Positions 7,037 through 49,800 of a stretch of DNA of 64,000 nt are shown piece by piece; positions within the stretch are counted from its first letter, which is position 1, and every line of letters starts with the position of its first letter. Where the stretch lies: assembly GCA_043228905.1 (NCBI GenBank), contig JBHGNT010000011.1:2976001-3040000 (forward strand), read 5' to 3'. The stretch comes from Azolla caroliniana (Eukaryota > Plantae > Polypodiophyta). The notes below the pieces were generated by a model. The model saw nothing but the letters and a program-made list of their open reading frames with translations. It did not search any database and had not been told where the DNA came from. The translations under genes and the position numbers were made by a program.

Positions 7037-8268
7037 ACGTTGTCGTGTTATTACGCGTGCGTGTGTGAAATAAGGCGGGACCACGGGGGCCCTGAACCGA
7101 GGAGCAAGAGAGACAAGAGGAAGTGAGGAGCGCGAAAGTGCGAGGGCTGCTAGACCTATCAGCAACCGGCGACACTTACCAGCTTATTGGACCACCAACG
7201 CGTATACTGACTCAATCAAAGAGCACACTCGAGAGAGATGAAAGAAGAGACTCCCTGAACACAGATAACACAGGTCAGCGGAAACAAGAGATCCTATTAC
7301 AATAACAGTGGCAATTACAACGGTTGCAACCCCGTAGAGAATGATGACAGAGGAAGAGAGAGCTCGGTTCCCAATCCGACAACACCTCCTCTTTCCCTTC
7401 CCAAAACGTAATACCCTTCTCCTATTCCCCTTCCCTTTTATAGGTCGCTGAGGAGGCCCTTACATCAAAACATGTCAACATTATTCTCTGTCCCTTCGGA
7501 CAGATATACACATCAATTTCCTAATAAATTGTCACACCTAGTATATTTACATCAGCCGTCCTATTCCTAGTTATGTACAATGTATCAATTCGCGCACACT
7601 CGTGCAAGGGCGGGTTCACTCCTTTAATTCCTTGATTCCTCTTCGGGCCGGTTTTCTTCACGACATCCACCCCCACCAAACCGTGCATCCACCGGTATGC
7701 GCCAAACACTAATAATCGCTGGAGAAGATCGGCCCGTAATCATCCGTCACTTCCCAAATCCTCGTCTGCTCTGAACCGGTCGTCGTCGTCGATCACGCTT
7801 CCCGGATCCGGCTCGTCCTCATGCCGCTTCTTGAATGTCTTGATCCGCGTCCTGGCTACCGACATTGTTAATCGCATCCCATTGAGCTCTGCAAGATGAT
7901 ACATACCGTTGTCATTCACGCTCATTATGGCGTAGGGCCCAAACCTCCTCCTTGTGAATTTGCGCGTTGCATTGTGCTGGTTGTTGAGGCTGTTGTCATA
8001 CACCAACACCCAGTCTCCTTCCTCGATCTTCTTTGGCCGTAGCCGGTGCGTTCGGTCATACTGATACCGATGGTTCTTTTGAATTATTTGCCGCCTATTC
8101 TACTCCAACATCCTCGAGATTTGGAAAGCAAAGTATTATGGATGAGGAAGAACCCTGGCAATAGACATGTATGGACTTGGAGAGAGGCCTATTCTAGGTC
8201 GTCTCGACTATTCTGGTGATAAAACAAGGTAAAGAGACCCGCAACCTCTTCGTACCAAGCTAGGTAAT

Positions 8269-8341
8269 CAGGAGAAAAGGGATTCGAACCCTTAACCTTT
8301 GGTTTTGGAGACCATTGTTCTACCATTGGAACTATTCTCCT
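8269..8341 (-). tRNA. trnW-CCA: tRNA-Trp(CCA), native plant-mitochondrial type (NUMT copy)
   Basis: AGGAGAATAGTTCCAATGGTAGAACAATGGTCTCCAAAACCAAAGGTTAAGGGTTCGAATCCCTTTTCTCCTG folds as a cloverleaf with a CCA anticodon. Confidence 0.93.
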
Positions 8342-9047
8342 GAAATTAAATAATTACTTACGAGCCGGATGGTTACTTTGCCTTTATTCCTTGGCGTTGA
8401 ACCGTGCGGCTTCATCAAGCAAGCAAGCAAGCAAGAACGCGGTTCATGCGGAAGAAGCGGTTCATCGTGCTTGCTTCATGTGGATTTCTAGGCCTTCATG
8501 CGGTGATATACAACGGCAGCAAGCAAGCAAGCAAGCAAGCATGAAGGCCGATATCGTCGTTCTTTGGCTTCATCTGGCCGGGCTGGGCCGGGCCGCCGCC
8601 CCTATGTATTTGATGAATCCTGTCCCGCAGTTTATGTTAAGACAGTGTGCGAGGGGCGCATATAGTCAGCTGCTCACAACCAACCTACTTTCGTCTTGAA
8701 ATGCCTTCTTAAGGCACTTTCCTCTCACTAGGTGAAAAGAAAGGAGTTTGCAGAAACGAATTGGAAAGGACCTCAAAGAAAGCAGCAAACCAATAGTACG
8801 CTAATTTACTTGGTCCTATCGATTTCTCACGTTAATAATAACCAAACGTGAAGTGGCCCGGTTAAGGTAGGGTTGTAGCGCCTGAAATTGCCTACCTCTA
8901 TGTATGAAGAAGATAATGAACCAAATGTCATCTAGCAACGCCATACCACTTAAATGAGATTAAGGTTTGGCTCCGACACTCCAACATGCCGACCGAGAAT
9001 TCCCAGAGAACAACACCATTCTATGAAACATTCAAGGAAGGTTTGTG

Positions 9048-9121
9048 TGCACCAAAGGGGACTTGAACCTCTAACCACTTGGTTCGAAGCTAGGTACTCT
9101 ATCCGATTGAGCTATCGGTGT
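9048..9121 (-). tRNA. trnR-UCG: tRNA-Arg(UCG), bacterial/chlamydial-like, decayed copy
   Basis: ACACCGATAGCTCAATCGGATAGAGTACCTAGCTTCGAACCAAGTGGTTAGAGGTTCAAGTCCCCTTTGGTGCA; TCG anticodon; acceptor and anticodon stem mismatches are G-to-A type. Confidence 0.85.
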
Positions 9122-12182: not shown

Positions 12183-12216
12183 AACCCTACTAGTTCATTG
12201 ACATGCACACAAAAAA

Positions 12217-12254
12217 TCTAGGGAGTGATTGTTACACCACAACATCTCCCTAGA
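12217..12254 (+). terminator. Plastid-type 3' inverted repeat stem-loop after petD
   Basis: TCTAGGGAG...CTCCCTAGA. Confidence 0.7.
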
Positions 12255-13288
12255 CTTGTTGTTTTTTTATAAGCAACTACTAAAATTTCGAAATGGTTCG
12301 ATTATTTATTCTATTTCTTATTTGACAACTAATTATACGTATACGACGACCAAAGCCGCATAACCGCTTTTTTCTGCATCCCCTTCTTGTCTGTCTATGC
12401 AAAAAAAAAATCACTACTTAGCCGCTTTCATTATTGATAAAGAGCCACAACGGGCAAGCAATGGGCTGGCCCACAACACCACAACACAAGGAGTACGATT
12501 CTGAGAAAAGACCTTTTATTCCTAATCCACGTTGTCGTGTTATTACGCAAGTGCGTGGAGAACAAGGCGAAACCACTGGGGTCTTGGACCGAGGAATAGG
12601 TGAGAAAAGGGAGAGAGAGAGACACACTCACACACGGATAGACAAAGAAGAGCGTAGGAGCGCAGCCCAACAACACAAGAGACACCAGTTGGGCAGGAGA
12701 TAGAGTATAAGAACGCGTATATAAATATATGTATGCAGATGACTCGAACGGTTACAGCCGATCAGGTCGGCGAGACGGGTGCCGACACCTGATCACCCAC
12801 ACACACAGGGGAGCAAGATGGAGATTCTGTCGGAAGCACACGGGCGTTCCACGGAACAGAATCAGCCTCTCGAGAACCTGCGCAAAGAAAGCTATGGAGA
12901 ACGACAGAGGAGAAGAGCTCGGTCCCAGTCCGACAGCACTTCGTCCCCTCTCCCCCTAGTGCCCCCCTCTCTCCCCGTCTCCCTCTCTTTTATAGCTCAA
13001 GGAGGGAGACCGTTTTCACCTGTTTACATCACATTAATTCTCTGTCCTTTCGGACAGAGATACTCCTCGATTCTCCCTATAGAATATTGCTACCTAGGAT
13101 TTGACTTTTGTGCCTACCTATCTAGTATACAACAAGGGGCGTGCCCACGTGTAAGGGCCGATTCACACACGCTATACACGGTTTGCACCTGGGGACGGTT
13201 TTCTTCACGACATCCGCCCCCACCTAACCGCGCATCCACCGGTATGCGCCAAAATTGGGTTCCTATTGGAGAAAACCGGTCCTTGCTT

Positions 13289-16200
13289 TTATTCCTCGTT
13301 TACCGGTTCGTTGCTGTCCATGCCCCCTAGCTCCGGCTCACCGTCGTGTTGTTTCTTGAACGCTTTGATCCTCTTCCCTGCTACCGGTATCGCCATTCTC
13401 GTATTGTCGAGCTCCGCGAGATGGTACGTCCCATTGTCATTGGTGCCTGTTACCACATAAGGCCCGAACACCCTCTTCGCAAACTTCCGCGTGGCCCTGT
13501 GCTGATTGTCGAGGCTGTTGTCGTAGACTAGCACCCAGTCGCCTTCCTCGATCTTCCTTGGCCGGAGCCGGTGTGTTCGGTCAAACCGGGCTTTGTTCCT
13601 TATCCTCACTACCCGAAGTTTCTCCGCGGCTCGCTCTACGTCCTCCGGCCTCCGCTCGAGCTGTCGAATCCGCGCCGCCAATAGTTCCTCCCGGCTCATC
13701 TCATCCCTCTAGTCCACCGTGGCCCACGAGGAAATCGTTCTCTCTGTTGGCATGATCGGCTTCTGTCCGAACATAAGCTCTGCCGGCATGAACTCGGTTA
13801 CCGAACTGTGCGTAGTCCAGTCCGCCCACAAGGCATATGGTAGCAGCCTTGGCCAGTTCCTGACTTGGCCTCCGCACGCCCGTACTAGTGCTTTGACAAT
13901 CGGCCCGTGTCCACGCTCTACCTTCCCGTTCGCCTCCGGATTGTACGCTGTGGTGAGCGAAAGTTTGACTCCTAGCTGGTCGAACAACTCTTTGGCCTCT
14001 TCTGCATCCAACTCACCACGGTCAGCCACGATCTTCCCTACGCACCCGTATCGACATACCACGTCCTCAATCAAAAACCGGCACACGGCTGCAGTCGTCT
14101 TGTTCTGCAAGGCTCGGCCTTCAACCTGGTTTGTTAGATCCTCCCGAGCCAGCACCAGATACCGCATTTGTCCTATCCCCATTGGCATCGTCACCAAATC
14201 CACCATCCACTTGAAGTGGACGGTCGGAGGGTAGGTCGGGTGAAGCTCGTCCCGGTGTCGTATCATGGAGTGCACCTGACAGCTTTCGCAAGTCGTCACG
14301 AACCGATGCACGTCCCGGTATAGTCCCGACCACCAGTACTTCCCCTTTAGCTTTTTGAACGTGGCCCACGTTCCACGGTATCCAGCCCAAGGACTATCGT
14401 GGTACGCCGCCAGCAAACCCTCCTGTTCCTCCTTCTTTGCCACCCCTTGGAGCGGGATGTCGTTCCTCTTCTTCGGGTGCTTCCATATGTACCCCTCCCG
14501 GAGGAAGAATCGGTATGCTTTCTTCTGAATCCAGTTGGCCTCATCCCTTGTCCATGCCGCGTCCGGTGTCATTGTTTTCAGGAACCCGCCGATCTGCAAC
14601 CACACCCCGTTGTACTTGCTCTCGTCAAAATCCTTAAGCGTTGGAGAGCATTCCCTGCCGGCTGTTACGTAAGCCGCCTCGAAGAAGTCCACGCTGACTT
14701 CCTCATCCTCTTAAACCATGCCGCCCTCGTTTTCGAACCTCGCCCTTGAAAGCATGTCGGCCATGGCATTGTCTTTCCCGGAAATGTGTCGTATTTCCGG
14801 ATTCAGGGACTTGATGTACGCTAATCACCTGAGCATTGCCAGGTCCGGCGTTGCACATCCGGAAACCATGCCAAGAATCGGCAGGCAGTCCGTCTCGATA
14901 ATTACCTCTGTCCCGATCAGGTAGTCTTTAACGGCCTTTAACGCCGAAACGATACCCCAAAGCTCGTGTTTAACCTGGGCGTATCCTCGTTGTCGCTTGT
15001 TGAGGACCTTCGCGCCGAACCGGATCGGAAAACGCATGCCGTCCTCGTCCTCTTGGTTGACGACCCATCCGATCCCGGTCGGACTCGTGTCTACCATTAC
15101 GCAAATTGGAGTGCTCTTTCCATAGACAACCTTTCGGAGCGCCGGAGCCGCGGTAAGTGCTTCCTTCATCTTCTGGACAGACTCTGTATGCTCGTCTCTC
15201 CACTCGAATTTTCGCCCCTTTTTCAGCAACCCGTATAACGGCTCCACGACGTGGGCGTAATGCGGGATCCATATGTGGTAGAACGCACATGCTCCCAAGA
15301 ACCTCCGAACCTCCGTGATCGAGCTACAGTCGGGCTTCATCGCGGAGATGGCTTCTACCTTAGCCGGAGACGGTTTCCGGCCGTACGGCCCGCATAGGTG
15401 TTCGACGACCATGATCTCTGATTGCCCGAAGGCCGATTTTCCCCCAGCGAAGGTGAGCCTCGCGCCCTCTAACCTCTGCAGCACCCTTTCGCAGTCATCT
15501 ATGTGCATCACCACGAATTTCCGGCACTCGTCCGCTCCGATCGTCTCGTCCTTTTCCTCCACCGGGCATCCCTTGATCGGGACGTCGTCCAGAAACGGCA
15601 TGGTGATGTCCGGGATACAATCCCTCAGCACCTTGTTCATTGCGTTCACCATGTGAGCCACCAAGTTCGTCCCTCCTTGCGGTAGGGTACACATCCGTAC
15701 TAGGCCGAGAGGAGTTCGCATTGTCGTGATGTCTCTGCTCTCTATGGCTAGCTGGAACTGATCGTACCCCGAGTAGAGATCATTGACTGAGTAAATTAAC
15801 CTTTCGGCGAAGGCCTCCGCGAACTCGTCTATTGTCGGTCCGACTCCTGCGTTCCGAATGGTCACCTTGTTGACCGGCTGCAGGTCTTGAATAAAGCGCA
15901 GCGTGCCATCCTTCTTCGGCACGGTAAACCACCGATTCGAGTATGGGGCACTCGACGGTTCGAGGATGCCCATCTCCACCCTTTGCTTTAGGAGCTCCAT
16001 CAACTTCGGGATGTGAGCTCTTGGCACCGGAATCGGCTTGAGATTCCACGGTACATGCGGCACCGTGAAGATCACCATTGGTTCGACAACTGTCGAGTCT
16101 ACGCACCTGATCTCCTCCGGTGAGAATGCGAAAGCCTTCCCGTGCCTCCTAAGCATTCTTCGAAACCGGTCCTCCTTCGCCGGCAGTAGGAAGCCGTCCC

Positions 16201-16752
16201 CACCGACCTTGAGCTCCCGTAGCGTTATGTCGGTGAACCGGTGCCCTATGCCGGCCGGATTCCGTAAACTTGGGTCCGACGCGACCCCCTTTATCCGCTC
16301 CTCGCTGCCCTCCGGCAAGGGTGTCGTGACTGGCCTCACCTTCCGGTCCACAGTCTTGTATTTCGTATCCACTTGGGCCGTCCGATCCGACCCGATCCTT
16401 CTTTCGAAGTCCGCGATGACTTCGTACATTTCTATCGACCCCACCGGAACGGTCCGGTCTTCTCTAAGGTCTTCACCGATCACCTTTCGTAGTTCGCCCA
16501 AGGTGTCGTCAAAAGAGACCGCCTCAACGGCTCCGTTGATGTTCTCGTCGGGGAAGAGGACTCTGCATCCCCTGAGCCGCTCCTCCGCTCGCTTCCTCTC
16601 CCTACCGCTGACGCTGGTTATAGTACAACCTCCGCTATCGGAGAGCCAAAATTTCCTACCTATGGTACAGGTCTTCTTTGCTATCGTACACTTGTGGGGT
16701 TTTCCCGGAGTGTCCGGACTATCACGGCCCCACACCTTGATAGCCCTCTCTA
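13289..16752 (-). pseudogene. Element B pol (RT-RNase H-integrase), several stops
   Basis: LPQGGTN, PFLDD, TDCLP, H..W..C..C, VADRGE, YNPEANGKVER, FGPY. Confidence 0.92.
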
Positions 16753-18876
16753 AAAATCCTCTCGGCTTTCGCCCCCGAGGGTCTCACGGTTCCGCTCACG
16801 GTTCGGTCTCACCGTCAGGAACTGGACCGAGTGGCGCTCATCCTGGCTCTTGACCCTTGCATAAGCCGAGCCGTTGTCCAACAACTTGGTCTCCATCCGT
16901 GCTGCCGTGATGTGCAGTTCTCCTAGTATAACCGGATGTGAGGACGTCTCCTGCACGAAGAAGTGTTGGTCAATCTCGACATCGCCGATCTTTACTCGTA
17001 CATTCGGGCAGGCTCCATGCAATTCTTCGGTGGCACGCGTCGCTGCTCATATTTTCCACCCGTGCTTGGTGTTGATCGGCCATTTCCCCTTCTTATAGAA
17101 GTCCATGGACATCAAATTGATTTCTGAACTGTGGTCCACTAACGCCACCACCGGTTCATGAACATCTCCGATCTTCATGGGGGTCTCCGTGGTCGCTCTA
17201 GCCTAGTGCGGCCTCCAATAGTGGCTCTCCGCCAACTCGTCTTATAGCGCCATGTCCTCTATGTGCGTCGTCTGCACCTCCACCGGCTTCTCCGGTTCTG
17301 TCTCCGTCGACAGCCTCTTCCTCTTCACCAAATCTACGATGGAGTCGTGGAACTCCTTCTTGGCGATCCCGAGCACTTCCCTCAGCAACAGTTCCACCTT
17401 GCTGTCGAGGATTCGTTCTTCCAGGACCTTTCGCAGGTCCGTGGATCTTTCGATTTCTGTGCCCAGCCGGTACCCGCCCCTCTTGGGATTATCTTGGGCG
17501 CCGGATACACCGGTCTCATTCCGTCTTTGCCCGAATCGAGTTTCATATCGTTGCGAGGGCCCGGCCCCTCCGGTTTTCCCTACCCGCTTGTCCTCCACCA
17601 GAGCCTCGTAGTTTTGACAAGCGGCTTCGACGAAGCCCGTCTTTTCTTCCACCGGGTCACTCCACCCGGTTACCTCCCAGACCCGTCTTTCCTCACAGTC
17701 CGCCTCTTCTTTCTTTAGTCGTGCGCCAGCGAGGCCTTCTAGCATCGTCGGCCAGAACCCGGCATTGTTCGTCTTCAGGGCCTCGCCACCTCCGACCCGA
17801 ATACCAGCTGACGCCGAGTAGTGGACGGTCTCCGCGTGACGAGCCGCCGCCTCCTCCATCAGCCTTTTCATACCCCCTCGCCCGACGTTCAGGTCCAGGG
17901 GCCTTCGGGTTTCACTGGCGTGCACCCGACCGTTCCACAGGTACACCACGTTGCTTCTCATCGCCTCGACGAAGTCCCCGCAGTCCTTCCGGATGTGGCC
18001 AACTGCGTCACACCACATGCACCTGTTTCTAGCCAGAGTTCGTCGGTCACGGCCCTGTTCACTACTGTCCCTCCGTGCCTGGGCGATCTGGAGGTCCTTT
18101 ACCATCTGCGTCAGTTCCTCCAGAGCTGCTCCCCCGGACGAGCCCTTGACCATGCCGGTCGAAGCCAATCCGGTCTCGAGCCAATCTTGGGTCTCTTCCC
18201 TTCGCGTTGGTGGTGTTGGCTCGAGCTTCCTTGCTGTGACAGAGCTCGCCCCTGTCGATCCTTTGGCAACCCATTCCTGCCATTTGTCGAAACAGCCACA
18301 GACCCTTTTCACCACGGCCCAGTCGGCCGTCAGCCTGTCATCAGTCTCCAATAGGAGGCCTACCTGCTCCCGATCCCGCTCATCAACTGACTTAACAAAC
18401 AATAGGACACAACTTGTGTCCAGAACGGTCCGGTCAAGCACCGAGAGGCGCGTGAAGCGTTCCTCAAACTCCCGGAGGAGCACCGACGCGTTCCTTCCTT
18501 TGTCGGGGGTCTCCACCCACTCCATGAAGTCCCGCTTCGAAAGTCGAAGCGCATCTTCAAGCTCGTATTTTTCGAGGAGCCAACCCTCGAACTCCTCCCA
18601 GGTCCGGCTCTCGGCCCGTACCTCGAGCACCTCCGTATGGATGCCCGACATTGCCACTCGAGGGAACCCGGCTAGACGCCTCTCTTCTGGAATGTCCCTC
18701 ATTACCATCTCAACCCGGTAGGATGCCAAGTAGCTCGTGGCATCCTTCCCACTAAACCGGCCGATCGTACCGACAACCGTCTCGATAGCCCTATCAAGGG
18801 CGCCGGTGCCTTCGCGCGCACTCACTATACGGTCCACAGCCGAAGCCATGGCTTCTGCGAGGTCTGACCCCCTCAT
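16750..18876 (-). pseudogene. Element B gag-protease ORF (internal stops)
   Basis: MRGSDLAEAM..., zinc knuckle CMWCDAVGHIRKDC, protease region, ends REDF*. Confidence 0.88.
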
Positions 18877-19599
18877 CTTCTACTCCTCTACCGCCTGTTC
18901 ACGTCGGGTTCACCAAATATGTGGCGTTATTACACGCGTGCGTGGAGAACAAGGCGGGACCACTGGGGTCTTGGACTGAGGAATAGGTGAGAAAAGGGAG
19001 AGAGAGAGACACGCTCACACACGGATAGACAAAGAAGCGCGCGGGAGCGCAACCCAACAACACAAGAGACACAAGTTGGGCAGGAGATAGAGTATAAGAA
19101 CGCGTATATAAATATATGTATGCAGATGACTCAAACGGTTACAGCCGATTAGGTCGGTGAGACGGGTGCCGACGCCTGGTCACCCACGCACACAGGGGAG
19201 CAAGATGGAGATTCTGTCGGAAGCACACGGGCGTTCCACGGAGCAGAATCAGCCTCTCGAGAACCTACGCAAAGAAAGCTATGGAGAACGACAGAGGAGA
19301 AGAGCTCGGTCCCAGTCCGACAGCACTTCGTCCCCTCTCCCCCTAGCGCCCCCCTCTCCCCCCGTCTCCCTCTCTTTTATAGCTCAAGGAGGGAGACCGT
19401 TTTCACCCGTTTACATCACATTAATTCTCTGTCCTTTTGGACAGAGATACTCCTCGATTCTCCCTATAGAATATTGCTACCTAGGATTTGACTTTTGTGC
19501 CTACCTATCTAGTATACAACAAGGGGCGTGCCCACGTGTAAGGGCCGGTTCACACACGCTATACACGGATTGCGCTTGGGGACGGTTTTCTTCACGACA

Positions 19600-20295: not shown

Positions 20296-20316
20296 TGCAG
20301 CTATTGGTGCTATCAT

Positions 20317-21389
20317 ATATAAGGTAGAGCAAAAGATATTATCTTTGTTTCTATGTGTGGAGCATAGAGAGTTCAAGGTAACTTGAACTAAGAGTAGAGG
20401 TGGGCTAGCTACTCGTAAAGGGTTTTAGCCAACCAAAACCGGACCGGCGATGGAGCCGGTGATTCGACGCCAGTGAGACACCGGCAATCCGACGGCAATC
20501 CGGCGACGGCACCGATATCCGACGGCAACCGACGTCGGTGAGACGACGGCAATCTGGCGTCGGTGAGACGATGACATCCGGCAGCGGCACTGATATCCGA
20601 CGGCAACCGGCGTCGGTGAGACGACGGCATCCGGCGAGGCACCGGTAACCGACAGCATCCGACGTCGGTGAGACGACGACATCCGGCAGCGGCACCGATA
20701 TCTGATGGCAACCGGCGTTGGTGAGACGACAGCATCCGGCGAGGCACCAGTAACCGACAGCATCCGGTGAGGCACCGGTAACCGACAGCATCCGATGAAC
20801 CGGCGTCCGGTGACTAGATAAATAAATATATAAATATATATACATATGCAAGGAGGGCAAGTAAGGATTCGAACCTTGCACCTCCAGTTAGGAGTCAATT
20901 GGCTTACCATTAAGCCATGCCATTTAGTTGAATTTATATTTCTATCATTGTACTTTTACATATAAATTCTCATACATGAGAGCTAAAATGAGTGACATGG
21001 TTATCATGCACCACATGTAATACATAAGCGCCAAATGGCAAACATGCATTTTATGCATGTCTTGTACCCTCACATGCATCATATGCATGAGAGCATCTAT
21101 AAAAGAAGGAGGGGGGAGGAGAAAAAACACGTTTTTTTTGGGGTTATGAAATTAAGAAGAAGAGATTCGTTATCAAATTGATCGTGTAACATGTTTCTTA
21201 AATCTAAAGATAAAAGTTCAATCAATCTCTCTCAATCGTTGAATCTCAACTTCTCTCTTTCCCAATCTATCTTAAGTACTTTCTCGCTAAAGCTTGCGCG
21301 AAAAGCTCGTACCGACTTTGAATCCTTCCAGTCCAGAACCTTGGCGGTTCCGCCTCACGATCCGCGCGTAGTGACGGATCTTCACGACA
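20317..21389 (-). mobile_element. Truncated LTR (element D) of the same gypsy lineage inserted in element A pol; contains a GC-rich tandem array (20440-20815)
   Basis: Ends CTTCACGACA like the LTRs of A and B, followed by CCGT and resumption of the host pol; left end lost at the NUMT junction. Confidence 0.7.
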
Positions 21390-24382
21390 CCGTAGAGTGG
21401 TTCCGCGACATGTGCATAGTGCGGAACCCAGATGTGATAGAACGCACTCGCGGCCAAGAACCTTCGGACCTTTGTAACTGATCTGCATTCGTCCTTCATC
21501 ACGGAGATAGCCTCCACCTTTGTCGGAGATGGTTTCTAGCCGTAAGGCCCGCACAAGTGCCCGACTACCAGGATCTCCAACTGCCCGAAAGCTGACTTCT
21601 CTCTGGAGAAGGTGAGCCGCGCGTTCTCAAGCCTTTGTAGCACCTTCTCGCAGTCTTTGATGTGGTTCGCAACAAACCTCCGGCAACCATCCGGTGGAAC
21701 CGACTCATCCTTCTCTTCCACCGGACATCCCTTTATTGGTATGTCGTCCAAAAACGGCATGGTGATGTTTGGGATGCAGTCCCTTAGCACTTTGTTCATA
21801 GCATTCACCATATGAGCCACCGAGTTGGTCCCTCCTTGCAGCATGGTACACATCCGCACTAGGCCGAGAGGAGTTCGCATCGTCATAATATCCCTGCTCT
21901 CCACGGCTAGTTGGAACTAGTCGTACCCCGAGTATAGATCCCCGACCGAATAGATCGACCTTCCGGCGAATGCCTCTGCAAACTCGTCAATGGTCAGCAT
22001 GATACTTGCATTTTGAATGGTCACTTTATTAACCGGTTGCAGGTCCTAAATGAAGCACAACATGTCGTTCTTCTTTGGCACCATAAACTACCGGTTCGAA
22101 TATGGGGCACTCGATGGCTCGAGGATGCCCATTTCTACCTTCTGTTTTAGCAGCTTCACCAACTCCGGGATGTGAGCTCTAAGTACCGGAATTGGCTTGA
22201 GATTCCACGGCACATGCGGTACCGTGAAGATCACCATTGGTTCCACGATCGTCGAGTCCACGCACCCGATCTCCCCCGACGCAAACGCGAAGGCCTTCCC
22301 GTGCCTTCCGAGCATTCCCCGAAACCTCTCCTCCTCCACTAGCAGTAGGAAGCCACCCCCACCGACCTTGAGCTCCCGTAGCATTATTTCGGTGAACCGG
22401 TGTCCTATGCTGGCCGGATTCCGCAAACTTGGGTCCCATGCGACCCCCTTTATTCGTTCCTCACTGCCCTCCGGCAAGGGTGCCACGACTGGCCTCACCT
22501 TCCAGTCCACATTCTTATACCTTGTATCCACGCAGGCCGTTCGATCTGACCTGACCCTTTCCCCGAAGTCAGCAATGACTTCGTACATTCCCACCAAGTT
22601 AACCGGAATCATCCGCTCTTCACTGAGGCCTTCTTCGATCACCTTCCCGATTTCCCCGAGGGTGTCATCGAAAGAGACCGCTTCCACGGTGCCACTAATT
22701 TCCTCATTTGGGACGAGGACTCTGCATGTCCTGAGTAGTTCCTCTACCCGCTTCTTCTCCCGGCCGTTGATGCTGGCTATAGTACAACCTCCGTTATCAG
22801 AGAACCAAAATTTCCTACCTATGGTACAGGTGTGGGGATCTTCCGGGGTGTCTGGACTATCACGGCCCTACACCTTGATAGCCCACTCTAAAAATCCCCT
22901 CGTTCGCCACTGCTGAGGGTTTCATGGTTCCGCTCATGGTTCGGTCGTACGGTCAGGAATTGGATGGAGTGCCGTCCATCTTGGCTCTTTACGCATGTGT
23001 ATGCCGAACCGTTATCCAACACCCTTGTCTCCATACGCGCTGCCATAATGTATGGCTCGCCGAGTATCACTAGGTGCGAGGACGTCTCCTACACAAAAAA
23101 GTGTCGATCGATCTCGACGTCGCCGATCTTGACATGTACATTCGGGCACGCCCTGTGCAGCTCCTCCGTAGCGCGGGTCGCCGCGTGTATTTTCCAGCCG
23201 TGCTTGGTGTTGATCGACCACCTCCCCTTTCTATAGAAGTCCATGACATCAGGTTGACCTCCGAGCCGTGGTCTATCAATGCCACCATAGGCTCCTAGAC
23301 ATCCCCGATCCGAACAGGGGTCTCTGTAGTGGCCCTGGCCCAGTGCGACCTCGAATAGTGGCTTTCCGCCAACTCGTCTTCCAGGGCCTTGAATTCCAGG
23401 TGCATGGTTCGCACCTCCATTGGTTTCTCTGGTTCCGGCTCCGTCGAGAGCCGTTTCCACTTCACCAAGTCCACGATCGAATCGTGGAACTCCTTGGCGA
23501 TCCCGAGAACCTCCCTCAGCGACAACTCCACCTTGCTGTCGAGGATCCGTTCTTCAAGGACCTTTCGTAAGTCTGTTGACCTCTCGATCTCCGTGCTCAG
23601 CCAGTAACCGGCCCGCTTCGTTTTGTCGGGTACGCCGAGGTTACCATCATCGTTTTGCTTCTGCTTGAACCGGGTCTTGTACTGTTGTGAGGGCCTGGCA
23701 CCTCCGGCCTTTCCCGCGCGCTTGTCTTCTACCAGAACATCGTAGTTCTAGCACGCGGTGTCGCGAAAATACGACGAGGATACGTGAACGTTGAGGCAAG
23801 ACCCCGGGGCCTTTGTCTAGACGATATCAAATTCGTGTATTTATATACTAAGAATTAACCGAAATGAGAAAGATTAACAAATTTCATTAATAAAAGGGAA
23901 AGAAAGATTACAATCAATCCCAAGATTGGGATTACAAAAGTTTATCTTATGGAGATGATTAGAATAATAGATTAGAGGAAATAAGAGATTATGATTCTTG
24001 AGTGATATGGCTTTGACAAGGAATTTTGGATTTTGAGAGATTGCTTCCGTATGGAAATTATGGTTTACTTGAGAGATCGCTTCCGTAGGGAAGATTAGGG
24101 TTATTGGCTTCGATAAGATAAGAGAGCTCCCCAAAGAAAAGGAAAAAAAATAATTTAGATATTATGGAGAGTATGGCAGTATAGGAAAAAAAATGGAATT
24201 ATATATGGAGTTCCTCGTTGATCATATGCCTCCACTTTTAGTTGCATAGCTTTTCTTTTCGTTGAATCTATTTTTAGTTGCATGGCTTTTTCTTTAGTTG
24301 CATGCGACCATCCACTTGACCTTTACTTTAGTTTGTTGCATGATCCAATCTTTCGTCTGTCCGCGTCCAACCTTGTCCTGTA

Positions 24383-24767
24383 GCCGGTTCCATTTTGCTT
24401 GCCGGTCATTTCCAGTTCCGATTTTGCTTGCCAGCCGGTTCCGGTTCCGGTTTTGCTTGCCAGACGGTTCCGGTTTTGCTTACCGGCCGGTTCCGGTTTT
24501 GCTTACCGGCCGGTTTCCGGTTTTGCTTGCCGGCCGGTTCCGGTTCTGGTTTTGCTTGCTGGCCGGTTCCAATTTTGCTTACCAGCCGGTTTCCGGTTTT
24601 GCTTGCCAGCCGGTTTCCGGCTTGCATACCCATTCCGGTTCCGGTTTGCTTGCCAGCCGGTTCCGGTTTTGCATACCAGCCGGTTTCCGGATTGCATACC
24701 GGCCGGTTTCCGAATTTGCTTATCGGCCCCGTTTTGCGGATTTGCTTACCGGCCGGTTTCCGGTTTT
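24383..24767. repeat. CCGGTT/TTGCTT satellite inside the element C LTR (second copy about 27660-28105)
   Basis: Dense CCGGTT(T)CCGGTTTTGCTT(A/G) units; array length differs between the two LTRs. Confidence 0.9.
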
Positions 24768-25412
24768 AGGGAATTTGGCCACCATCATCCATCAAGACAA
24801 AGTGGCCAAAGTGCTCTTAGCACAAATGAAAAATGAGGGAGCTCAAGGTGTTTATATAGCCAAGGCCTCAACTTTCCTATCTGTGTGGGATAGTTCTAAT
24901 TTCCCTATCTTCTCAAACTTTATTTTCTCATAACTTGATATGTATTTCTCCATTTTGTATATAGTAAAAAACGTTTTGAAGCTCTTGAGTATATCCATCT
25001 TTCTATAATACTCTACTAATCTAATGTATAATAATTATTTCATTATTTTTTTACATAGTGTGTGAAGATTCACACGACATTCACCCCCACCAAACCTACA
25101 CATCCACCGGTATGTGTCAATTGTGTTATTGAGTTGTATCCTCCTAGTTGAAATCTTTAATCCTTGTCGTAATATTTTCTTTCCTTCATAAGCTAACTAT
25201 CTATGATAGAGATTGACCTTGAACCAACTCGTTGGTTCCTTATCTTTCTTCTTCCAATGCCACCATGACCATTCTTTCCACCATAACCATGGAGACCATC
25301 CAAACCACCAAATCCTTTGTCTGAGCTTTGCATTGCCATATTTGGTTTTCATGTCCTCTTTTGCCTTCCTGAAGCATAACCCTTCATGCATCATGCAAGT
25401 GCTACCTTTATT

Positions 25413-40400: not shown

Positions 40401-41227
40401 GATCCAACGACGGTACCGTATGAACCCTAACTACGCAGCTAAGGTCAAAGAGGAAATCGACAAAATCCTTCGAGTAGGCTTTATACGCCCAGTAAAAAGA
40501 GCCACATGGTTAAGCCCAATCGTCGTCGTCCCCCAAAAAAACGGGAAAATCCGTTGTCGTGAAGAAAACCGTCCACAAGTAGAATCGGTGCACAGGAGCG
40601 TAGGAACCGGCTCTTCTCGAATGTTGTCCATAGAAGATCCTAGGCGGGTAGATTCGGTGGATAGGAAGTAAAGGGGAAATGGCTCCTTCCTTGCCTATAA
40701 AAAGGAGGGAGACGAGAAGGGGGAGGGATCGCGGAGAGTCGAGGACGAAGTGTTGTCGGTTTGCGTGCGAAGGCTTCTCTCTCTCTCTCTAGTTCGCAAA
40801 CTCCATAGCTTCCTTCTGTGCAGGTTTCGGGAGGCTCGCGCTGCTTTGAGGAACGCCCGAGTGCTTCCGGTAGCACCTCCAACCTGCTCCTGTCTTTCTA
40901 TGCGTTTACGAACAGACATCGGCATCTGTTCGCCGGCCTGTTCGGTTGTAACCGACTTCGTGTTTTTGTTGCTTCCGTGTTCTTGTTGTTGTCTTTGTTA
41001 ATACATACATATATTCGTGTCTCTCTGTGTCGTTGTCCCACTCGCGTCTTTGTGTCGAAGGGCCGTGTCCCTGTGAATCTACGCTCGCACGTAGTGGGTC
41101 TCTTGTCCTTTCTCTCTTGCTCTTCGGTACAGAACCCCTGAGATCCCGCCTCATTCCACGCATCCACGAGGAAAACCTCGACATCTTTGGTGAACCTAAC
41201 GTGAAGGAGGCGGCAGAAGAGCAGAAG

Positions 41228-43354
41228 ATGAAAGGGTCGGATCTTGCAGAGGCCATGGCTTCGGCCGTGGATCGGATACTAAGCGCACGCGAGGGCTCCG
41301 GCGCCCTCGACAGAGCCATTGAGGTGGTCGTCGGTACGATCGGCCGGTTCAGCGGAAAGGATGCCACGAAGTATTTGGCGTCCTACGGGGTAGAAATGTT
41401 GATGCGGGACATTCCGGAAGAGAGGCGTCTTGCCGGGTTTCCTCGAGTGGCGATGCCGAGCATCCATGCGGAGGTGCTCGAGGTGCGGGCGGAGAGCCGT
41501 ACCTAGGAGGAGTTCGAAGGCCGACTCCTGGAAAAATATGGGCTGGACGACGCGCTCCGGCTTTCGAAACGAGACTTCATGGAATGGGTGGAGTCCCCCG
41601 GCAAGGGAAGAAACGCGTCGGCACTCCTCCGGGAGTTCGAAGAACGCTTTGCGCGCCTTTCGGCGCTTGACCGAACCATTCTAGATACGAGCCGGGTCCT
41701 ACTGTTCGTCAAGTCGGTGGACGAGCGGGACCGGAATCAAGTCGGCTCCTTGCTGGAAACCGAAGACGGGCTGACGACCGACTGGGCAGCGGTTAAGAGA
41801 GTCTGTGGCCGTTTCGACAAACGGCGAGAATGGGCTGATATCGGGGCGGCCGGTGCGCGGTCTGTCACAGCAAGGAGGCTTGAACCGGCACCGCAAGGGC
41901 GAAGGGAAGAAACCCGGGAATGGCTCGAAACCGGCCCGGCTTCGACCGGCATGGTCAGTGGCTCGTCCGGAGGAGCAGCGCTGGAGGAGTTGACGCAGGC
42001 GATAAAGGATCTCCAGATCGCCCAGACTCGAAGGGAAGGCGGCGAACCGGCTCGTGACCGACGGCCGGCAGCAGGGAACAGGTGCATGTGGTGCGACGAG
42101 GTCGGCCACATTCGGAAGGACTGCGGCGATTTCGCAGAAGCGTTGAGGAACCGGGTGGTGTACTTGTGGGAAGGCCGGGTGCACGCCAACGACGCCAGAA
42201 GGGCCCTAAACCGAAACGACGGACGAGGAGGTATGAAGAGACTGATGGAAGAGGCAGCGGCCCAACACGTGGAGGCCATCCACTACTCGGCGTCGGCCGA
42301 CATTCGGGTCAGGGGCAGCGAGGCCCGAAAGGAGGGCAAAGACGGATTCTGGTCGGCAATGCTGGAAGGTCTTGCCGGCGCACGGCTAAGGAAAGACGAA
42401 ACAGACCGTGCTGAGAGACGGGTCCGGGAAATAACCGGGTGGAGCGATCCGTTCAAGGAGAAGATGGGCTTCGTAGAAGCCGCCTGCCGGAACTACGAGG
42501 CTCTGGTAGAAGACAATCGAGTGGGGAAAGCCGGAGCGGCCGGGCTCTCACAACGGTACGAGACCCAATTCGGGCAACGACGGAACGATGCCGGTGGGTC
42601 CAGCTCGCAAGATAACCCCAGGAAGGGCGGATACCGACTGGGGACAGAAATAGAAAGGACTACGGACCTACGAAAGGTCCTGGAAGAACGGATCCTCGAC
42701 AGCAAAGTGGAGCTGTCATTACGGGAGGTGCTAGGGATCGCCAAGAAGGAGTTCCACGACTCCATTGTGGACTTGGTGAAACGGAAGAGGCTGTCGACGG
42801 AGACAGAACCGGAGAGACCGGTGGAGGTGCGGACGACGCACATCGACGACTCGGCGCTGGCAGATGAGTGGGCGGAGAGCCACTATTCGAGGCCACACTG
42901 GGCCCGAGCGACCATGGAGACCCCAGTAAAGATCGGAGATGTTCAGGAACCGGTGGTGGCACTGGTGGACCACGGTTCGGAAATAAACCTAATGTCCATG
43001 GACTTCTATAAGAAGGGAAAGTGGCCGATCAACAGCAGGCACGGGTGGAAGATACGGGCGGCGACGCGCGCCACCGAGGAACTACACGGGGCCTGCCCGA
43101 ATGTGCGAGTAAAGATCGGCGACGTCGAGATTGACCAGCACTTCTTCGTACAGGAGACGTCCTCGCATCCGGTCATATTAGGGGAACCATACATCACGGC
43201 GGCGAGAATGGAGACCAAGGTGCTAGACAACGGTTCGGCCTATGCGAGGGTCAAAAGCCAGGACGGGCGCCATTCGGTCCAATTTCTGACGGTGCGACCG
43301 AACCACGAGCGAAACCGTGAATCCCTCGGTGGCGAGAACCGGGAGGATTTTTAG
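41228..43354 (+). pseudogene. Element F gag-protease (premature TAG at 41504)
   Basis: MKGSDLAEAM..., CMWCDEVGHIRKDC, LVDHGSEINLM, ends REDF*. Confidence 0.9.
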
Positions 43355-46300
43355 AGAGGGCTGCCAAGGCGTGGGGCCGAGACAGTCCGGACACTCGGAA
43401 AAGACCCCACGACTGTACGATAGGTAGGAAATTTTGCTTCTCCAACAACGGAGGGTGTATGATAGTCGGCATCGTCGGCCGAGAAAAGACAAGGGCGGAA
43501 GTGCGACTTCGAGCGTGTGGAGTTCTCGGCCCGGACGAGGAAATCAGCGGAGCCGTGGAGGCGGTCTCCTTCGACGACACCTTGGGAATGCTGAGGAAGG
43601 TAGCCGGAGAAGACCTTAACGAAGACCGGACGATACCGGTATGTTCCGAAGAGATGTACGAAGTCATCGCGAACTTCAGTCGGGGGCTCGGGTCGGATCG
43701 GACGGCCCGAGTTAGCATGAAGTACAAGACTGTGGACCGGAAGGTAAGGCCAGTCGCGGCACCCTTGCCGGAGGGCAGCGGGTCCCGAATCAGAGGGGTG
43801 GCGTCGGACCCCAGTTTACGAGATCCGGCCTGCATAGGACACACCTTCACCGACGGGACGCTCCGGGAGCTCAAGATCGGTGGGGGCGGGTTCCTACTGC
43901 CGGCGGAGGAAGACCGGTTTCGGAGAATGCTCGGAAGGCACAGGAAAGCCTTCGCATTCTCACCGGAAGAGATCGGGTGCGTAGACCCGACAATCGTGGA
44001 GCCGATGGTGATATTCACGGTACCGCATTTGCCGTGGAATCTCAAGCCGATTCCGGTACCGAGAGCTCACATCCCGAAGTTGATGGAGCTATTGAGGCAG
44101 AAAGTAGATATGGGCATTCTTGAACCGTCGAGTGCCCCATACTCGAACCGATGGTTTACCGTACCGAAGAAAAACGGAACATTGCGCTTTATTCAGGACC
44201 TGCAGCCAGTCAACAGAGTGACCATTCGGAACGCAGGAATCGGACCGACCATAGACGAGTTCGCAGAGGCCTTCGCTGGAAGGTCGATTTACTCGGTTGG
44301 TGATCTGTACTCGAGGTACGACCAGTTCCAGCTAGCCGTGGAGAGCAGGGACATTACGACGATGCGAACTCCCCTCGGCCTAGTGCGAATGTGTACCCTG
44401 CCACAAGGAGGGACCAACTCGGTAGCCCACATGGTGAATGCAATGAACAAGGTGCTGAGGGATTGCATCCCAGACATCACCATGCCGTTTTTAGACGACA
44501 TCCCGATCAAGGGGTGCCCGGTGGAGGAGAAGGGCGAGACAGTCGGGCCGGACGGATGCCGGCGATTCGTGGCGACACACATCGACGACTGTGAGAAGGT
44601 GCTACAAAGGCTAGAGGATGCGAGGTTCACCTTCTCCGGGGAGAAATCGGCCTTCGGGCAATCGGAAATCCTGGTGGTCGGACACCTATGTGGACCTTAT
44701 GGCCGGAAGCCGTCTCCGGCAAAGGTAGAAGCCATCTCCGCGATGAAGACCGATTGTAGCTCGGTTACGGAAGTTCGGAGGTTCCTGGGGGCATGCGAGT
44801 TCTACCACATATGGATCCCGCATTACGCCCACGTGGCGGAGCTGCTATACGGGTTGCTGAAGAAAGGGCGAAATTTCGAGTGGCGAGTCGAGCACACGGA
44901 GACGGTCCGGAAGCTGAAGGAAGCTCTTGCGGCAGCACCGGCGCTCCGGAAGGCTGTCTACGAGAAGTGTACCCCGGTATACATAACGGTGGATACGAGT
45001 CCGACCGGGATCGGATGGGTCGTCAACCAAGAAGACGAGGACGACATTCGGTTCCCGATCCGATTCGGCGCGAAGGTCCTCAGTGAGCGACAGTGAGGGT
45101 ACGCCCAGGTTAAACGCGAACTCTGGGGTATCGTTTCGGCAGTAAAGGCCGACAAAGACTACCTGATCGGGACAAAAGTGATTATCGAGACGGATTGCCT
45201 ACCAATTCTCGGCATGGTTTCCGGATGCGCGACACCGGACCTGGCGATGCTCAGGTGGATAGCGTACATCAAGTCCCTGGACCTGGAAATACGGCACATT
45301 TCCGGAAAGGACAACGCCATGGCCGACATGCTTTCGAGGGCGAGGTTTGATGACGAGGGCGGCATGGTTTTGGAGGACGAAGAAGTCGGCGTGGACTTCT
45401 TCGAGGTAGCGTACGTGACGACCGATGGGACGAGCACTCCGGCACTTAACGACTTCGACGAGAGCAAGTACGACGGCAAGTGGCTCCAGATCGGTGGATT
45501 TTTGAGGACGATGACGCCGGATGCGTCGTGGACGAAGGACGAGGCCAACCGGATCCGGAAGAAAGCTTACCGATTCTTTCTCCGGGACGGATTCTTATGG
45601 AAGCACTCGAGGAAGAGGAACGGCGTCCCGCTCCGGATGGTGGCGATGAAGGAAGAACAGGAGGAGCTGTTGACGGCCTACCACGACAGCCCTTGGGCTG
45701 GGACACCGTGGAACGTGGGCCACGTTCGAGAAGATAAAGGGGAAGTACTGGTGGCCGGGACTGTACCGAGATGTGCATCGGTTCGTGACAACTTGCGAGA
45801 GCTGTCAGATGCACTCCGTGGTCCGACACCGGGACGAGCTTCACCCTACGTACCCTCCGACCATCCACTTCAAATGGATGGTAGACCTGGTAACGATGCC
45901 GATGGGAGTAGGACAGATGCGGTATTTGGTCCTGGCTCGGGAAGATCTGACAAACCAGGTAGAAGGCCGGGCCCTTCAGAACAAAACGACCACGGCCGTA
46001 TGTCGGTTCCTGATCGAGGACGTGATATGCCGGTACGGGTGCGTCGGGAAGATCGTGGCTGATCGCGGGGAGTTGGACGCCGAAGAGGCCGAGGAGCTGT
46101 TCGATCGGCTAGGAGTCAAGCTCTCGCTTACCACTGCGTATAATCCGGAGGCGAATGGGAAGGCGGAGCGCGGTCACGGACCGATCATCAAGGCGTTAGT
46201 TCGGGCATGCGGAGGTCAAGTCGGGAACTGGTCGCGGCTGTTGCCTTACGCGTTGTGGGCGGACCGAACTACGCACAGTTCGGTAACCGGATTCATGCCG

Positions 46301-46808
46301 GCAGAGCTCATGTTTGGGAAAAAGCCGATCATGCCGATGGAACGTACGATCTCCTCGTGGGCAACCATGGACTGGAGAGACGAGATGAGCCAGGAGGAAC
46401 TGCTGGCGGCGCGTATACGATAGCTCGAGCGAAGACCGGAGGACGTGGAGCATGCTTCGGGAAGCAAGGATGAGGAACAAAGTCCGGTTCGACCGGACGC
46501 ACCGGCTCCGACCGAAGAAGATCGAGGAAGGCGACTGGGTGCTAGTCTACGACAGCAGCCTCGACAACCAACATCGAGCGACACGGAAGTTCGCAAGAAG
46601 GTGGTTCGGGCCTTACGTGGTACAAAGCGCCACCGACAACGGGACGTACCATCTGGCGGAACTCGACGGCACGAGAATGGTGATACCAGTAGCTGGGAAG
46701 CGGATCAAAGCGTTCAAGAAGCGTCATGATGACGAGCCGGATCCGGTTGGCCTGAACCGCGACGACGAACGATCCGAAACCGAGGAAGAACCGACGGGCG
46801 GGGAATGA
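43351..46808 (+). pseudogene. Element F pol in the -1 frame (stop at 45094, later frameshifts)
   Basis: PFLDD RT, RNase H and integrase motifs as in B. Confidence 0.92.
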
Positions 46809-49800
46809 AGGCTGGACCAGTTTTCTCCGTCCCGACTCAATTTGGCGCATGCCGGTGGATGCGCAGTTAGGTGGGGGCGAAGGTCGTGAAGAAAACCGTC
46901 CACAAGCAGAATCGGTGCACAGGAGCGTAGGAACCGGCTCTTCTCGAATGTTGTCCATAGAAGATCCTAGGCGGGTAAATTCGGTGGGTAGGAAGTAAAG
47001 GGGAAACGGCTCCTTCCTTGCCTATAAAAAGGAGGGAGACGAGAAGGGGGAGGGATCGCGGAGAGTCGAGGACGAAGTGCTTTCGGTTTGCGTGCGAAGG
47101 CTTCTCTCTCTCTCTCTGGTTCGCAAACTCCATAGCTTCCTTCTGTGCAGGTTTCGGGAGGCTCGCGCTGCTCTAAGGAACGCCCGAGTGCTTCCGGCAA
47201 CACCTCCAACCTGCTCATGTCTTTCTGTGCATTTACGAACAGGCATCGGCATCTGTTCGCCGGCCTGTTCGGTTGTAACCGACTTCGTGTTTTTGTTGCT
47301 TCCGTGTTCTTGTTGTTGTCTTTGTTAATACATACATACATTCATGTCTCTCTGTGTCGTTGTCCCACTCGCGTCTTTGTGTCGAAGGGCCGTGTCCCTG
47401 TGAATCTACGCTCGCACGTAGTGGGTCTCTTGTCCTTTCTCTCTTGCTCTTCGGTACAGGACCCCTGAGGTCCCGCCTCATTCCACGCATCCACGAGGAA
47501 AACCTCGACACAGTGTTTGCGTTGATTACCGCAAACTCAATGCCGCGACAATCACGGATGGGTTTCCTCTTCCGTTCAAGGATAGTGTCCTCGACACGGT
47601 GGCTGGTCATGAATGCTACAATTTCCTCGATGGGTTCAATGGCTATAATCAAATCAGAATGCACCCAGACGATCAGGAGAAAACGGTGTTTGTCACGGAA
47701 TGGGGTGTTTTCGTGGCCGAGGTAATGATGTTGGGATTAAAAACGGCCCCGGCCACATTCCAACACTTCATCACAAAGATTTTCAACGAGTATATCCTGG
47801 CGTTCATGCAAGTGTTCCTCGACGACTTTGCCGTGTATAGCCAGCGGCTGGAGCATATGACCCAGCTACGCCTCCGTCTCGAGCGATCTCGACACGCTCG
47901 GTTGAGCTTAAATCCGGCAAAATGCGTGTTCTTGGTGACAAGCGGCAACCTGCTCAGGCACATAGTCAGCCAGGAAGGTATCGCCATGGACCCGGATAAA
48001 GTGCATACCATTCTGAATGCTCCCGCGCCCTCTACCGCTAAGGCTCTCAGCCGATTCCTCGGCCAAATTAGATGGCATAGCCGGATGTTATGACACCTGG
48101 CCGATTTCGCGACTCTGCACACAGTGGTGCATAGACTCCCATTTCAGTGGTCTTCAATAGAAGACGAAGAGTACCAAGCCTTGAAGTTAATGCTCTCCCA
48201 TGCCCCTGTGGTACAGCCACCAGTTTGGTCGGAACCTTTTCACATCTTCGTAGACGCATCAGATATAGCCATCGGCAGCATGCTCATGCAGCGCACACCA
48301 CCAAATTGGTACCGGCCAGTGTATTACACTAGCTGACGACTCTCGGCCGCGGAAAAGAACTATTCAACAACTGAACGTGAGGCCCTCGGTGTGGTTTACA
48401 GCATCAACAAATTCCGGCATTACCTCTTGGGCCGGAACTTCACATTCCACATCGATCACTCGGCCCTCCTCTACTTGGTTAATAAGCAGGCCCTCATAGG
48501 TCGCCTAGCCTGATGGATGCTCTTGCTACAAGAGTTTGACATTCAGATACAGCACCGGCCCGGCGTTCAACACGTCGTAACTGACTACCTTAGCCACCTC
48601 GAGTCAGGCAAACCAGCCGAGTCCACGTACGATGATCTACCCGACACCACCCTTTTCAGTCTCGCAACGGTGCTAGACGAAAATGAGGATGAATGGATCG
48701 TAGAGATGACCCATTTTCTCAACACCGGCCTTCCTCCTGACCACTTGACCCTCAACGCTCGGAAACGACTAGTTGTCAGGAGCCGAAACTTTTGTCTCGT
48801 CTCCGACACCCTCTACCACAAAGGCTCGGACGACATCTGGCGCCGTGCAATCCGTCAATTCGAGAAATCCGCAATCCTCCAGGAGGCACATGATGGAATC
48901 ATGGGGGGACATTATGCTAGAGAGGCCACAACAAGAAAAATATGGCAAAGTGGCTTATGGTGGCCCACAACAAAAAAAGATGCTCATGAATTCTGTCGAC
49001 AATGCGATCTGTGTTAAAACATGGGAAAACCAACCGAGCAAGCCTGGATGCCGCACAAACCCATTCTTCCATTAGAGGCATTTCAAAAGTGAGGGTTAGA
49101 TTTTGTAGGACCTTTCAAACCAGCCGCGGCCCGGCACAGGTAATAAATACATCATCGTGGCCACGGACTATTGCACAAAATGGGTAGAGGCTAAGGCACT
49201 ACGGGACAACACAGCTGTGTCCACGGCAAAATTCGTATACGAACATCTATGGTGCCAATATGGATGCCCAATCGAGCTCATTAGTGACCAAGGCGGGCAT
49301 TTTATAAACCACATAATTCGCGACCTCACTACACACTACGCTGTCGTACATAAGAAAAGTACGTCGTACTATCCACAGGCAAACGGATTGGCGGAGTCTA
49401 CTAATAAAAATTTTCAAACAATCCTGAAAAAGATCGTCAATGAGAACCGCACCGCTTGGGATGACAAGCTCCAGAGTGCATTATGGGCGTATCGCACCAC
49501 ATTCAAAACTAGCATTCAGTCTACACCCTTTCGGATGGCCTTTGGTTTGGAAGCAGTCATGCCGATCGAGTTCCAAGTTCCGAGTCTCCGAGTTTAGGTT
49601 AAGGAAAGGCTCCCCGAGGCCCAATCAGAGCAATATCGGCTCGAACAACTCCTTGAACTCGGCGAACAACGGGTGGCCAGCATGGCTCACCTGGAAGAAT
49701 GCCAACGACAACGCAAAGCATTCGTCGATTGACACTGGAATGGTACGAAGAAAGCACTTACCATCGGCAAACTAGTGTTGGTCTTCCAAACACAACTCGG

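What the first reader, a model, noticed from the sequence alone, without database searches (positions are those of the whole stretch)
7037..47514. Gypsy lineage that appears to target CpG with a 4-bp target duplication
Seen: five independent insertions of one lineage (TGTCG...CGACA termini; tRNA-Trp PBS wherever it is preserved) are each flanked by a CpG-centred 4-mer. A: ACGT/ACGT (7037, 30295). B: ACGT/ACGC (12529, 19600). D: CCGT (21390). C: GCGG (23755; right copy damaged). F: CCGT/CAGT (40551, 47511). Removing 4 bp restores the host frame for B (rpoA) and F (KIR-VCVDY). The other LTR elements here have ordinary 5-bp TSDs (GCTAC, TGGTC, GTACG, GGTTT). Established: plant LTR elements mostly make 5-bp TSDs with weak preference. 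Inference: this integrase, which has no visible chromodomain, selects NCGN sites, possibly methylated CpG, steering the family into silenced repeats. The frequent TSD mismatches may reflect unusual gap repair.
Basis: partly seen in the sequence, partly recalled or inferred. Interest (0 to 1): 0.85.

Follow-up and report, generated by a model that had tools for sequence, protein, structure and literature searches.

The report
Fern Phygy-like retrotransposon inserting at CpG
A family of jumping genes in what is likely a water-fern genome inserts almost only at CG pairs and copies four bases of the target, but this habit is already published for the moss Phygy lineage, to which the family likely belongs, and nothing here shows that it senses methylation.

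Summary
A, B and F have 4-bp CpG-centred duplications; B's uninterrupted plastid site proves 4 bp and target ACGC. C and D are one-sided. In related metagenome contigs 76 of 79 unique LTR-flank junctions are NCGN against 3.4% background. ACGT is favoured and TCGA never used. Neumann et al. 2019 (PMC6317226) list for Phygy: 4-bp TSD 100% NCGN, tRNA-Trp primer, no extra domain. Each of these three traits is met here. Phylogenetic membership could not be tested because no labelled Phygy protein was available. The host is likely a Salviniales fern; relatives occur in Riccia and Adiantum. The likely mechanism is a 4-bp-stagger integrase that bends DNA at a central CG step and reads it by sequence. 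Methyl sensing is untested. 'Unusual gap repair' is unsupported: B's mismatch is a later C-to-T change. The scan noted an NCGN pattern earlier in a fungal genome (e1-10582392).

The parts
7041..7665 (-). Element A 3' LTR; TSD copy ACGT at 7037-7040; PPT follows at 7666
29719..30294 (-). Element A 5' LTR; PBS at about 29697-29714; TSD copy ACGT at 30295-30298; host is a broken copia element
21390..29718 (-). Element A internal gag-PR-RT remnant, interrupted by C at 23759-28417; about 1.65 kb of RH/INT is missing between 8061 and 21390
12533..19599 (-). Element B, 7067 bp, LTRs 12533-13212 and 18920-19599 (95.6% alike), gag-PR then RT-RH-INT, inserted in a nuclear copy of plastid petD-rpoA; TSD ACGT/ACGC, target ACGC
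13289..14710 (-). B integrase (broken by stops): H2C2 finger, DDE core with DRGEL, SH3-like C-terminal domain with QHxxxRKF loop and GPY motif, short acidic tail, no chromodomain
20314..21389 (-). D: left-truncated piece of a high-copy repeat with an LTR-like terminus abutting host CCGT at 21390-21393; one junction only
23759..28417 (-). Element C: LTRs 23759-25079 and 27041-28417, extra partial LTR plus PBS 26670-27040, no pol domains found; left flank GCGG, right copy mostly lost
40555..47510 (+). Element F, 6956 bp, LTRs 40555-41183 and 46882-47510 (97% alike), PBS at 41188, gag-PR 41507-43354, pol 43321-46808 broken; TSD CCGT/CAGT in the RT of another Gypsy

Best explanation
These are nested copies of a non-chromovirus Ty3/gypsy retrotransposon family with a tRNA-Trp-type primer site, likely a fern branch of the Phygy lineage, which leaves a 4-bp duplication and inserts almost only at VCGB sites (mostly ACGT), likely because its integrase bends the target at a central CG step and reads those bases by sequence. 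Shown: 4-bp duplication, CG centre, avoidance of T first and A last, no chromodomain, no archaeal RNase H. Inferred: the sharp central bend and the T/A edge rule come from the shared intasome geometry of 4-bp integrases. The choice of CG over the other flexible steps (TA, CA, TG) comes from base contacts, with the near-invariant DRGEL helix start and the basic QHxxxRKF loop before GPY as candidates. Because young transposon DNA here holds about four times more CG than neighbouring non-transposon DNA, a pure sequence preference would already favour nesting in repeats without reading methylation. TSD mismatches are later mutations.
For: Empty-site joint gives 4 bp. 76 of 79 unique flanks are NCGN against 512 of 15068 background positions. 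13 of 15 junctions at the other LTR end are NCGN. CG is 76 of 77 YR centres used, though only 1546 of 10806 YR steps in the flanks; T-first/A-last 5 of 76 against 60% expected; TCGA 0 against 10.4 expected; ACGT 33 against 4.5. Phygy row: 186 elements, 4 bp 100% NCGN, Trp 81%, no extra domain. Serrao 2015 (PMC4422553): 4-bp integrases select a central YR step and disfavour T/A at the TSD edges; Ala188 and Arg329 of PFV contact bases. DRGEL in 56 of 67 homologues where the motif was matched, with Glu aligned to the PFV Ala188 position. CG per kb is 67-94 in elements against 19 in 59700-64000.
Against: No labelled Phygy protein was available, so clade membership is untested. B and F (7067, 6956 bp) fall below the Phygy range 7656-9968, and Phygy was described as specific to P. 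patens. The 79 sites come from one series of short-read assemblies of a related host (LTR matches about 67-94% alike where longer than the pattern), and the search pattern demanded intact CpGs in the LTR end, which favours young copies. Of 8 contigs with flank on both sides of one LTR, 3 match exactly at 4 bp, 2 have one mismatch and 3 do not match (chimeric assembly assumed). No data here separate sequence reading from methyl reading. The CTD gave no useful structure match, so the loop's role is conjecture.
Confidence: 0.78

Rival explanations
1. The integrase prefers methylated CpG (5mC eases unstacking or is contacted directly), steering the family into silenced repeats without a chromodomain.
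For: All five window insertions sit in repeats or an organelle-derived insert; 27 of 78 outside flanks match transposon DNA or proteins of the window; the elements show CG and CHG decay; only CG among the YR steps is used. [quoted passage not shown]
Against: Methylation alone would not predict 0 TCGA sites against 10.4 expected. A CGCG target occurs among Drosophila errantiviruses, in a host with almost no CpG methylation (recalled). There is no genome background for the 27 of 78. Only 1 of 79 flanks shows a CG-to-TG decayed centre, although the set is biased to young copies.
Confidence: 0.15
2. The family is not Phygy but a separate non-chromovirus clade of seed-free plants (or a TatI relative that lost its aRH) that has the same CG-centred 4-bp specificity.
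For: Shorter than the Phygy range; no P. patens name among the 120 pol and 120 integrase hits listed; TatI also has 4 bp and tRNA-Trp.
Against: Three independent Phygy traits coincide; no aRH in Pfam scans or in homologue annotations, and a median of only 111 residues between RH and the zinc finger in 67 homologues; Phygy is reported from a liverwort (PMC12885004), and this clade has liverwort and fern members.
Confidence: 0.17
3. The pattern is chance, or an artefact of CG-rich nested repeats and boundary picking.
For: The window is CG-rich (o/e 0.95); C and D are one-sided.
Against: 76 of 79 outside junctions in flanks of 43% GC with CpG o/e 0.74, p about 1e-107; the empty site fixes the boundary.
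Confidence: 0.01

Closest known systems
Phygy, non-chromovirus Ty3/gypsy clade of Physcomitrium patens (Neumann et al. 2019, PMC6317226; passages and supplementary table 5 read)
   Same: 4-bp TSD with NCGN motif, tRNA-Trp PBS, no chromodomain or aRH, polyprotein filling nearly all of the internal region
   Different: Host here is likely a Salviniales fern; elements about 7.0 kb against 7.66-9.97 kb; motif resolved here to VCGB with ACGT favoured; tree placement untested
TatI (OTA superclade; same table)
   Same: 4-bp TSD, tRNA-Trp PBS
   Different: TatI carries an archaeal RNase H in 100% of elements; none found here; no NCGN preference is listed for it
Ginger1 DNA transposons (Bao et al. 2010, PMC2836005; passages read)
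   Same: Gypsy-type integrase with H2C2, DDE, GPY/F; 4-bp CG-centred TSD (CCGG 75%, CCGT/ACGG 24%); TGT termini
   Different: DNA transposons with TIRs in animals; CCGG is their main site but is under-used here (2 against 5.4 expected)
Drosophila errantiviruses with TATA, CGCG or ATAT targets (review PMC5408687; passages read)
   Same: LTR elements with sequence-specific palindromic 4-base targets, one class CG-rich
   Different: Env-bearing insect lineage with AGT/AnT termini; CGCG is not NCGN
Prototype foamy virus and other 4-bp-TSD retroviral intasomes (Serrao et al. 2015, PMC4422553; abstract, passages and section 14 read)
   Same: 4-bp stagger, central YR step, T/A disfavoured at TSD edges; best PDB sequence match of this integrase (E 3e-17)
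   Different: Their preference is weak and any YR serves; they have a small neutral residue where this clade has Glu

Membership tests
Ty3/gypsy LTR retrotransposon | LTRs, PBS, PPT and order gag-PR-RT-RH-INT | tested here: met
Phygy | Clusters with P. patens Phygy in RT/RH/INT trees (the primary definition) | not testable with these tools
   The REXdb FASTA supplement is too large to read; no P. patens-named hit; the tree (quick method, 115 rows) has only Riccia and Adiantum labels
Phygy | 4-bp TSD | tested here: met
Phygy | NCGN target motif | tested here: met
   76 of 79 unique junctions; 13 of 15 at the other end
Phygy | tRNA-Trp PBS | tested here: met
   4 of 4 window elements with a 5' LTR; 16 of 18 match to a printed human tRNA-Trp complement; the host's own tRNA gene was not found
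Phygy | No extra domain (chromodomain or aRH), no extra ORF | tested here: met
   Pfam finds Chromo in another element at 3797-4747 but not in B or F; median tail 67 residues after GPY in 75 homologues
Phygy | Size 7656-9968 bp (descriptive; the paper calls size insignificant for classification) | tested here: not met
   7067 and 6956 bp; remark
TatI | Archaeal RNase H in the polyprotein | tested here: not met
Chromovirus | Chromodomain at the integrase C-terminus | tested here: not met
Selgy | tRNA-Ala PBS, 4.4-6.7 kb | tested here: not met
Methyl-CpG-guided integrase (hypothetical) | Preference for methylated over unmethylated CpG | not testable with these tools
   no methylation data or assay available

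The most novel reading that the evidence does not exclude
Phygy-like elements form one clade across mosses, liverworts and ferns whose integrase has kept near-absolute CpG specificity and reads 5-methyl-CpG directly through its DRGEL helix and basic GPY-proximal loop, a chromodomain-free route into silenced DNA.
Probability: 0.12. Interest if true: 0.65.

Novelty: new member of a known kind. Interest (0 to 1): 0.22.

Why it matters
The headline (plant Gypsy with a 4-bp NCGN TSD) is in print for moss Phygy, so it is not a discovery. What is added is modest: the trait in a likely fern host, which I did not find in print (searches), a finer motif (VCGB, ACGT favoured, TCGA unused), and candidate specificity residues. 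If the integrase proved to read methyl-CpG, it would show a direct DNA-mark route to heterochromatin targeting and offer a CpG-specific integrase. The family is a good substrate for that test.

Tried and rejected
No whole genome is held, so no genome-wide census. A labelled Phygy reference was sought without success: homologue searches, cluster members of 10 hits, the ESM Atlas (generic Gypsy RT clusters only), a paper search for DUF4100 (0 papers; its link to Physcomitrella is only recalled), and the REXdb FASTA and element table (too large; they may bear on membership). The P. patens TE paper PMC7466625 has no TSD or Phygy mention. GingerRoot (PMC6839031) has a 6-bp non-specific TSD and was rejected as a parallel. 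A host tRNA-Trp gene was not found in viral or prokaryote collections. The integrase CTD matched no solved structure usefully. A YPYY-like motif regex matched only 12 of 239 proteins and mostly lacked the proline position: inconclusive. Loose ends at 13945, 15099 and others proved to be divergent sequence or other elements. Laying reads on D gave no flank consensus at its end. The idea that D's end is just host RT sequence was considered; host-type contigs diverge at 21390 and repeat depth rises there, so it was rejected. The careful tree did not finish; the quick tree was used and its outgroup is on a very long branch. No fold or complex job was run.
Full report
Observation. The window is a stack of nested LTR elements. 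A (LTRs 7041-7665, 29719-30294) has ACGT on both sides, B (12533-19599) has ACGT/ACGC, and F (40555-47510) has CCGT/CAGT; none extends to five bases. C has GCGG on the left, at the place where B and F carry GCGG in the homologous gag, but only two letters of a right copy. D is a left-truncated piece (20314-21389) of a high-copy repeat, with one junction at host CCGT and only 11 terminal bases in common with A/B/F. So three of the five insertions show a TSD and two are one-sided. The four 5-bp control TSDs are all present as pairs.

TSD length. B lies in a nuclear copy of plastid petD-rpoA. Laying contigs of four public runs on B gave a joint 12528 to 19600 in 4 of 4 runs at depth 936-3742. It skips 7071 bases, the 7067-bp element plus 4, and shows that the target was ACGC. 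The left copy ACGT is therefore a later C-to-T change in a CTG context. LTR pairs of A, B, C, F differ by transitions at 52 of 348 CG, 23 of 251 CHG and 28 of 916 CHH cytosines, the ordinary decay of methylated DNA. No special gap repair is needed; F's C-to-A mismatch is assumed to be a point mutation. Reading each side separately, the host frames of F and A are in register with a 4-bp duplication.

Target preference beyond the window. No genome is held. I dropped 6 loci whose likeness ends with the pattern, 30 preceded by the PPT (internal junctions) and 5 duplicates, leaving 79 unique flank junctions. 76 of 79 end in NCGN; the background is 512 CG in 15068 flank positions (3.4%), binomial p about 1e-107. 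The exceptions are ATGG, CCTT and ATCT. At the other LTR end 13 of 15 flank junctions begin with NCGN. Of 8 contigs with flank on both sides of one LTR, 3 match exactly at four bases and not five, 2 have one mismatch and 3 do not match, probably chimeric contigs. The three joints shown from B's LTR end into B's interior land on ACGT, GCGC and GCGT (short sides, weak). Caveats: the loci come from one series of assemblies of a related host, and the pattern favours young copies.

The motif is finer than NCGN. First base A 49, C 17, G 9, T 1; last base T 50, G 12, C 10, A 4, a symmetric VCGB. ACGT is used 33 times against 4.5 expected from CG contexts in the flanks, TCGA 0 against 10.4, and T-first or A-last sites 5 of 76 against 60%. 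CG is 76 of 77 YR centres used, but only 1546 of 10806 YR steps available.

What it is. B and F encode gag (weak DUF4100 hit)-PR and, in an overlapping frame, RT-RH-INT with H2C2, rve and SH3-like domains; both are broken by stops or shifts. Pfam finds no chromodomain, although it finds one in another element of the window. Homologues have a median 67 residues after GPY (75 proteins) and 111 between RH and the zinc finger (67 proteins), leaving no room for a chromodomain or an aRH there (239 proteins examined). The PBS follows a 4-base spacer in A, B, C, F. B's matches 16 of 18 bases of a printed human tRNA-Trp complement (10.1101/400127, one passage) and is the exact complement of the plant small RNA listed as miR894 (PMC5846777, passages). 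The rpoA fragment's best named hits are Pilularia (82%) and Marsilea (78%), then other ferns, so the host is likely a Salviniales fern. Named pol relatives are from Riccia (liverwort) and Adiantum (fern), 54-71% identical over the RT core, in one broad clade with many unnamed sequences (quick tree, 114 of 122 candidates kept plus B).

What is known. Neumann et al. [quoted passage not shown] Jedlicka et al. 2019 (PMC6911290, passages) also find 4-bp TSDs most common in Phygy, and GC-rich centres in 4-bp TSDs overall. Phygy is named in a liverwort genome (PMC12885004, passages). Three further papers only list the name. The three diagnostic traits are met; size is a little short; the defining tree placement could not be tested, since no labelled Phygy protein turned up. 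TatI shares 4 bp and Trp but has aRH, which is absent here. I found no paper describing NCGN targeting in a fern (listings only, and the library lacks most subscription papers).

How it likely works. Serrao et al. 2015 (PMC4422553; abstract, passages, section 14) report that integrases with a 4-bp stagger bend target DNA sharply at a central YR step and disfavour T and A at the TSD edges, because thymine's methyl may clash at the joining site. That accounts for the V and B of VCGB and for a YR centre. Exclusive use of CG must come from something more. The integrase's best solved relative is PFV integrase. Where PFV has the base-contacting Ala188 and retroviruses have small neutral residues, this clade has Glu in a DRGEL motif (56 of 67 matched homologues), and a conserved QHxxxRKF loop precedes GPY. 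These are candidates for base reading; this step is inference. Ginger1 transposases (PMC2836005, passages) and a CGCG-targeting errantivirus group (PMC5408687, passages) show that Gypsy-type integrases reach CG-centred specificity elsewhere. CG density is 67-94 per kb in the window's elements and 19 per kb in its non-transposon end, so sequence preference alone would favour nesting. Methyl sensing remains possible: 27 of 78 outside flanks match window transposons, but there is no background to judge this by, and TCGA avoidance is not what methylation alone predicts.

Verdict. The feature is real and well supported, and is most likely a fern member of the Phygy kind, whose NCGN 4-bp targeting is published. 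Added here: a likely fern host, the VCGB/ACGT refinement, empty-site proof and candidate residues. Interest 0.22.

Noticed in passing
window 8061-12528 and 19600-20313: Organelle-derived insert inside element A: two tRNA genes (8269-8341, 9048-9121), petD with its group II intron end, the 3' end of rpoA, and an inverted pair 8521-8706 / 19899-20106. The petD reading has residues that look like unedited fern plastid codons.
   Followed up: partly
window 26670-27040: Element C carries a tandem duplicate of the end of its 5' LTR plus PBS, so two primer sites; its 1.3-kb LTRs hold a short tandem array, and no pol domain was found between them: likely a non-autonomous derivative.
   Followed up: no
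window 18897-18914 (B PBS; also A, C, F): The PBS is the exact complement of the abundant plant small RNA annotated as miR894, likely a tRNA-Trp 3' fragment that could silence these elements. The spacer between LTR and PBS is 4 bases in the window and 3 or 4 in related loci.
   Followed up: partly
window 32462-36562 and 53815-58026: Two copia elements with intact 1367- and 1404-residue ORFs and LTRs 100% and 99.9% alike, so very recent; the sister LTR at 59158-59656 preserves the empty GTACG site.
   Followed up: no
window 20314-21389: D belongs to a very high-copy repeat with a GC-rich tandem array (about 20460-20810) and a tRNA-like stretch near 20860; its family is unidentified.
   Followed up: partly
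window about 42960-43010 (F protease) and 44490-44510 (F RT): Catalytic motifs read DHGS in the protease and FLDD in RT, instead of the usual DSG/DTG and YxDD (usual forms recalled).
   Followed up: no
window 1132-1350: Degenerate TTAGGG-like telomere-type repeats near the window start.
   Followed up: no
window 61985-62629: Host gene fragment with a DCD (development and cell death) domain in CG-poor DNA.
   Followed up: no
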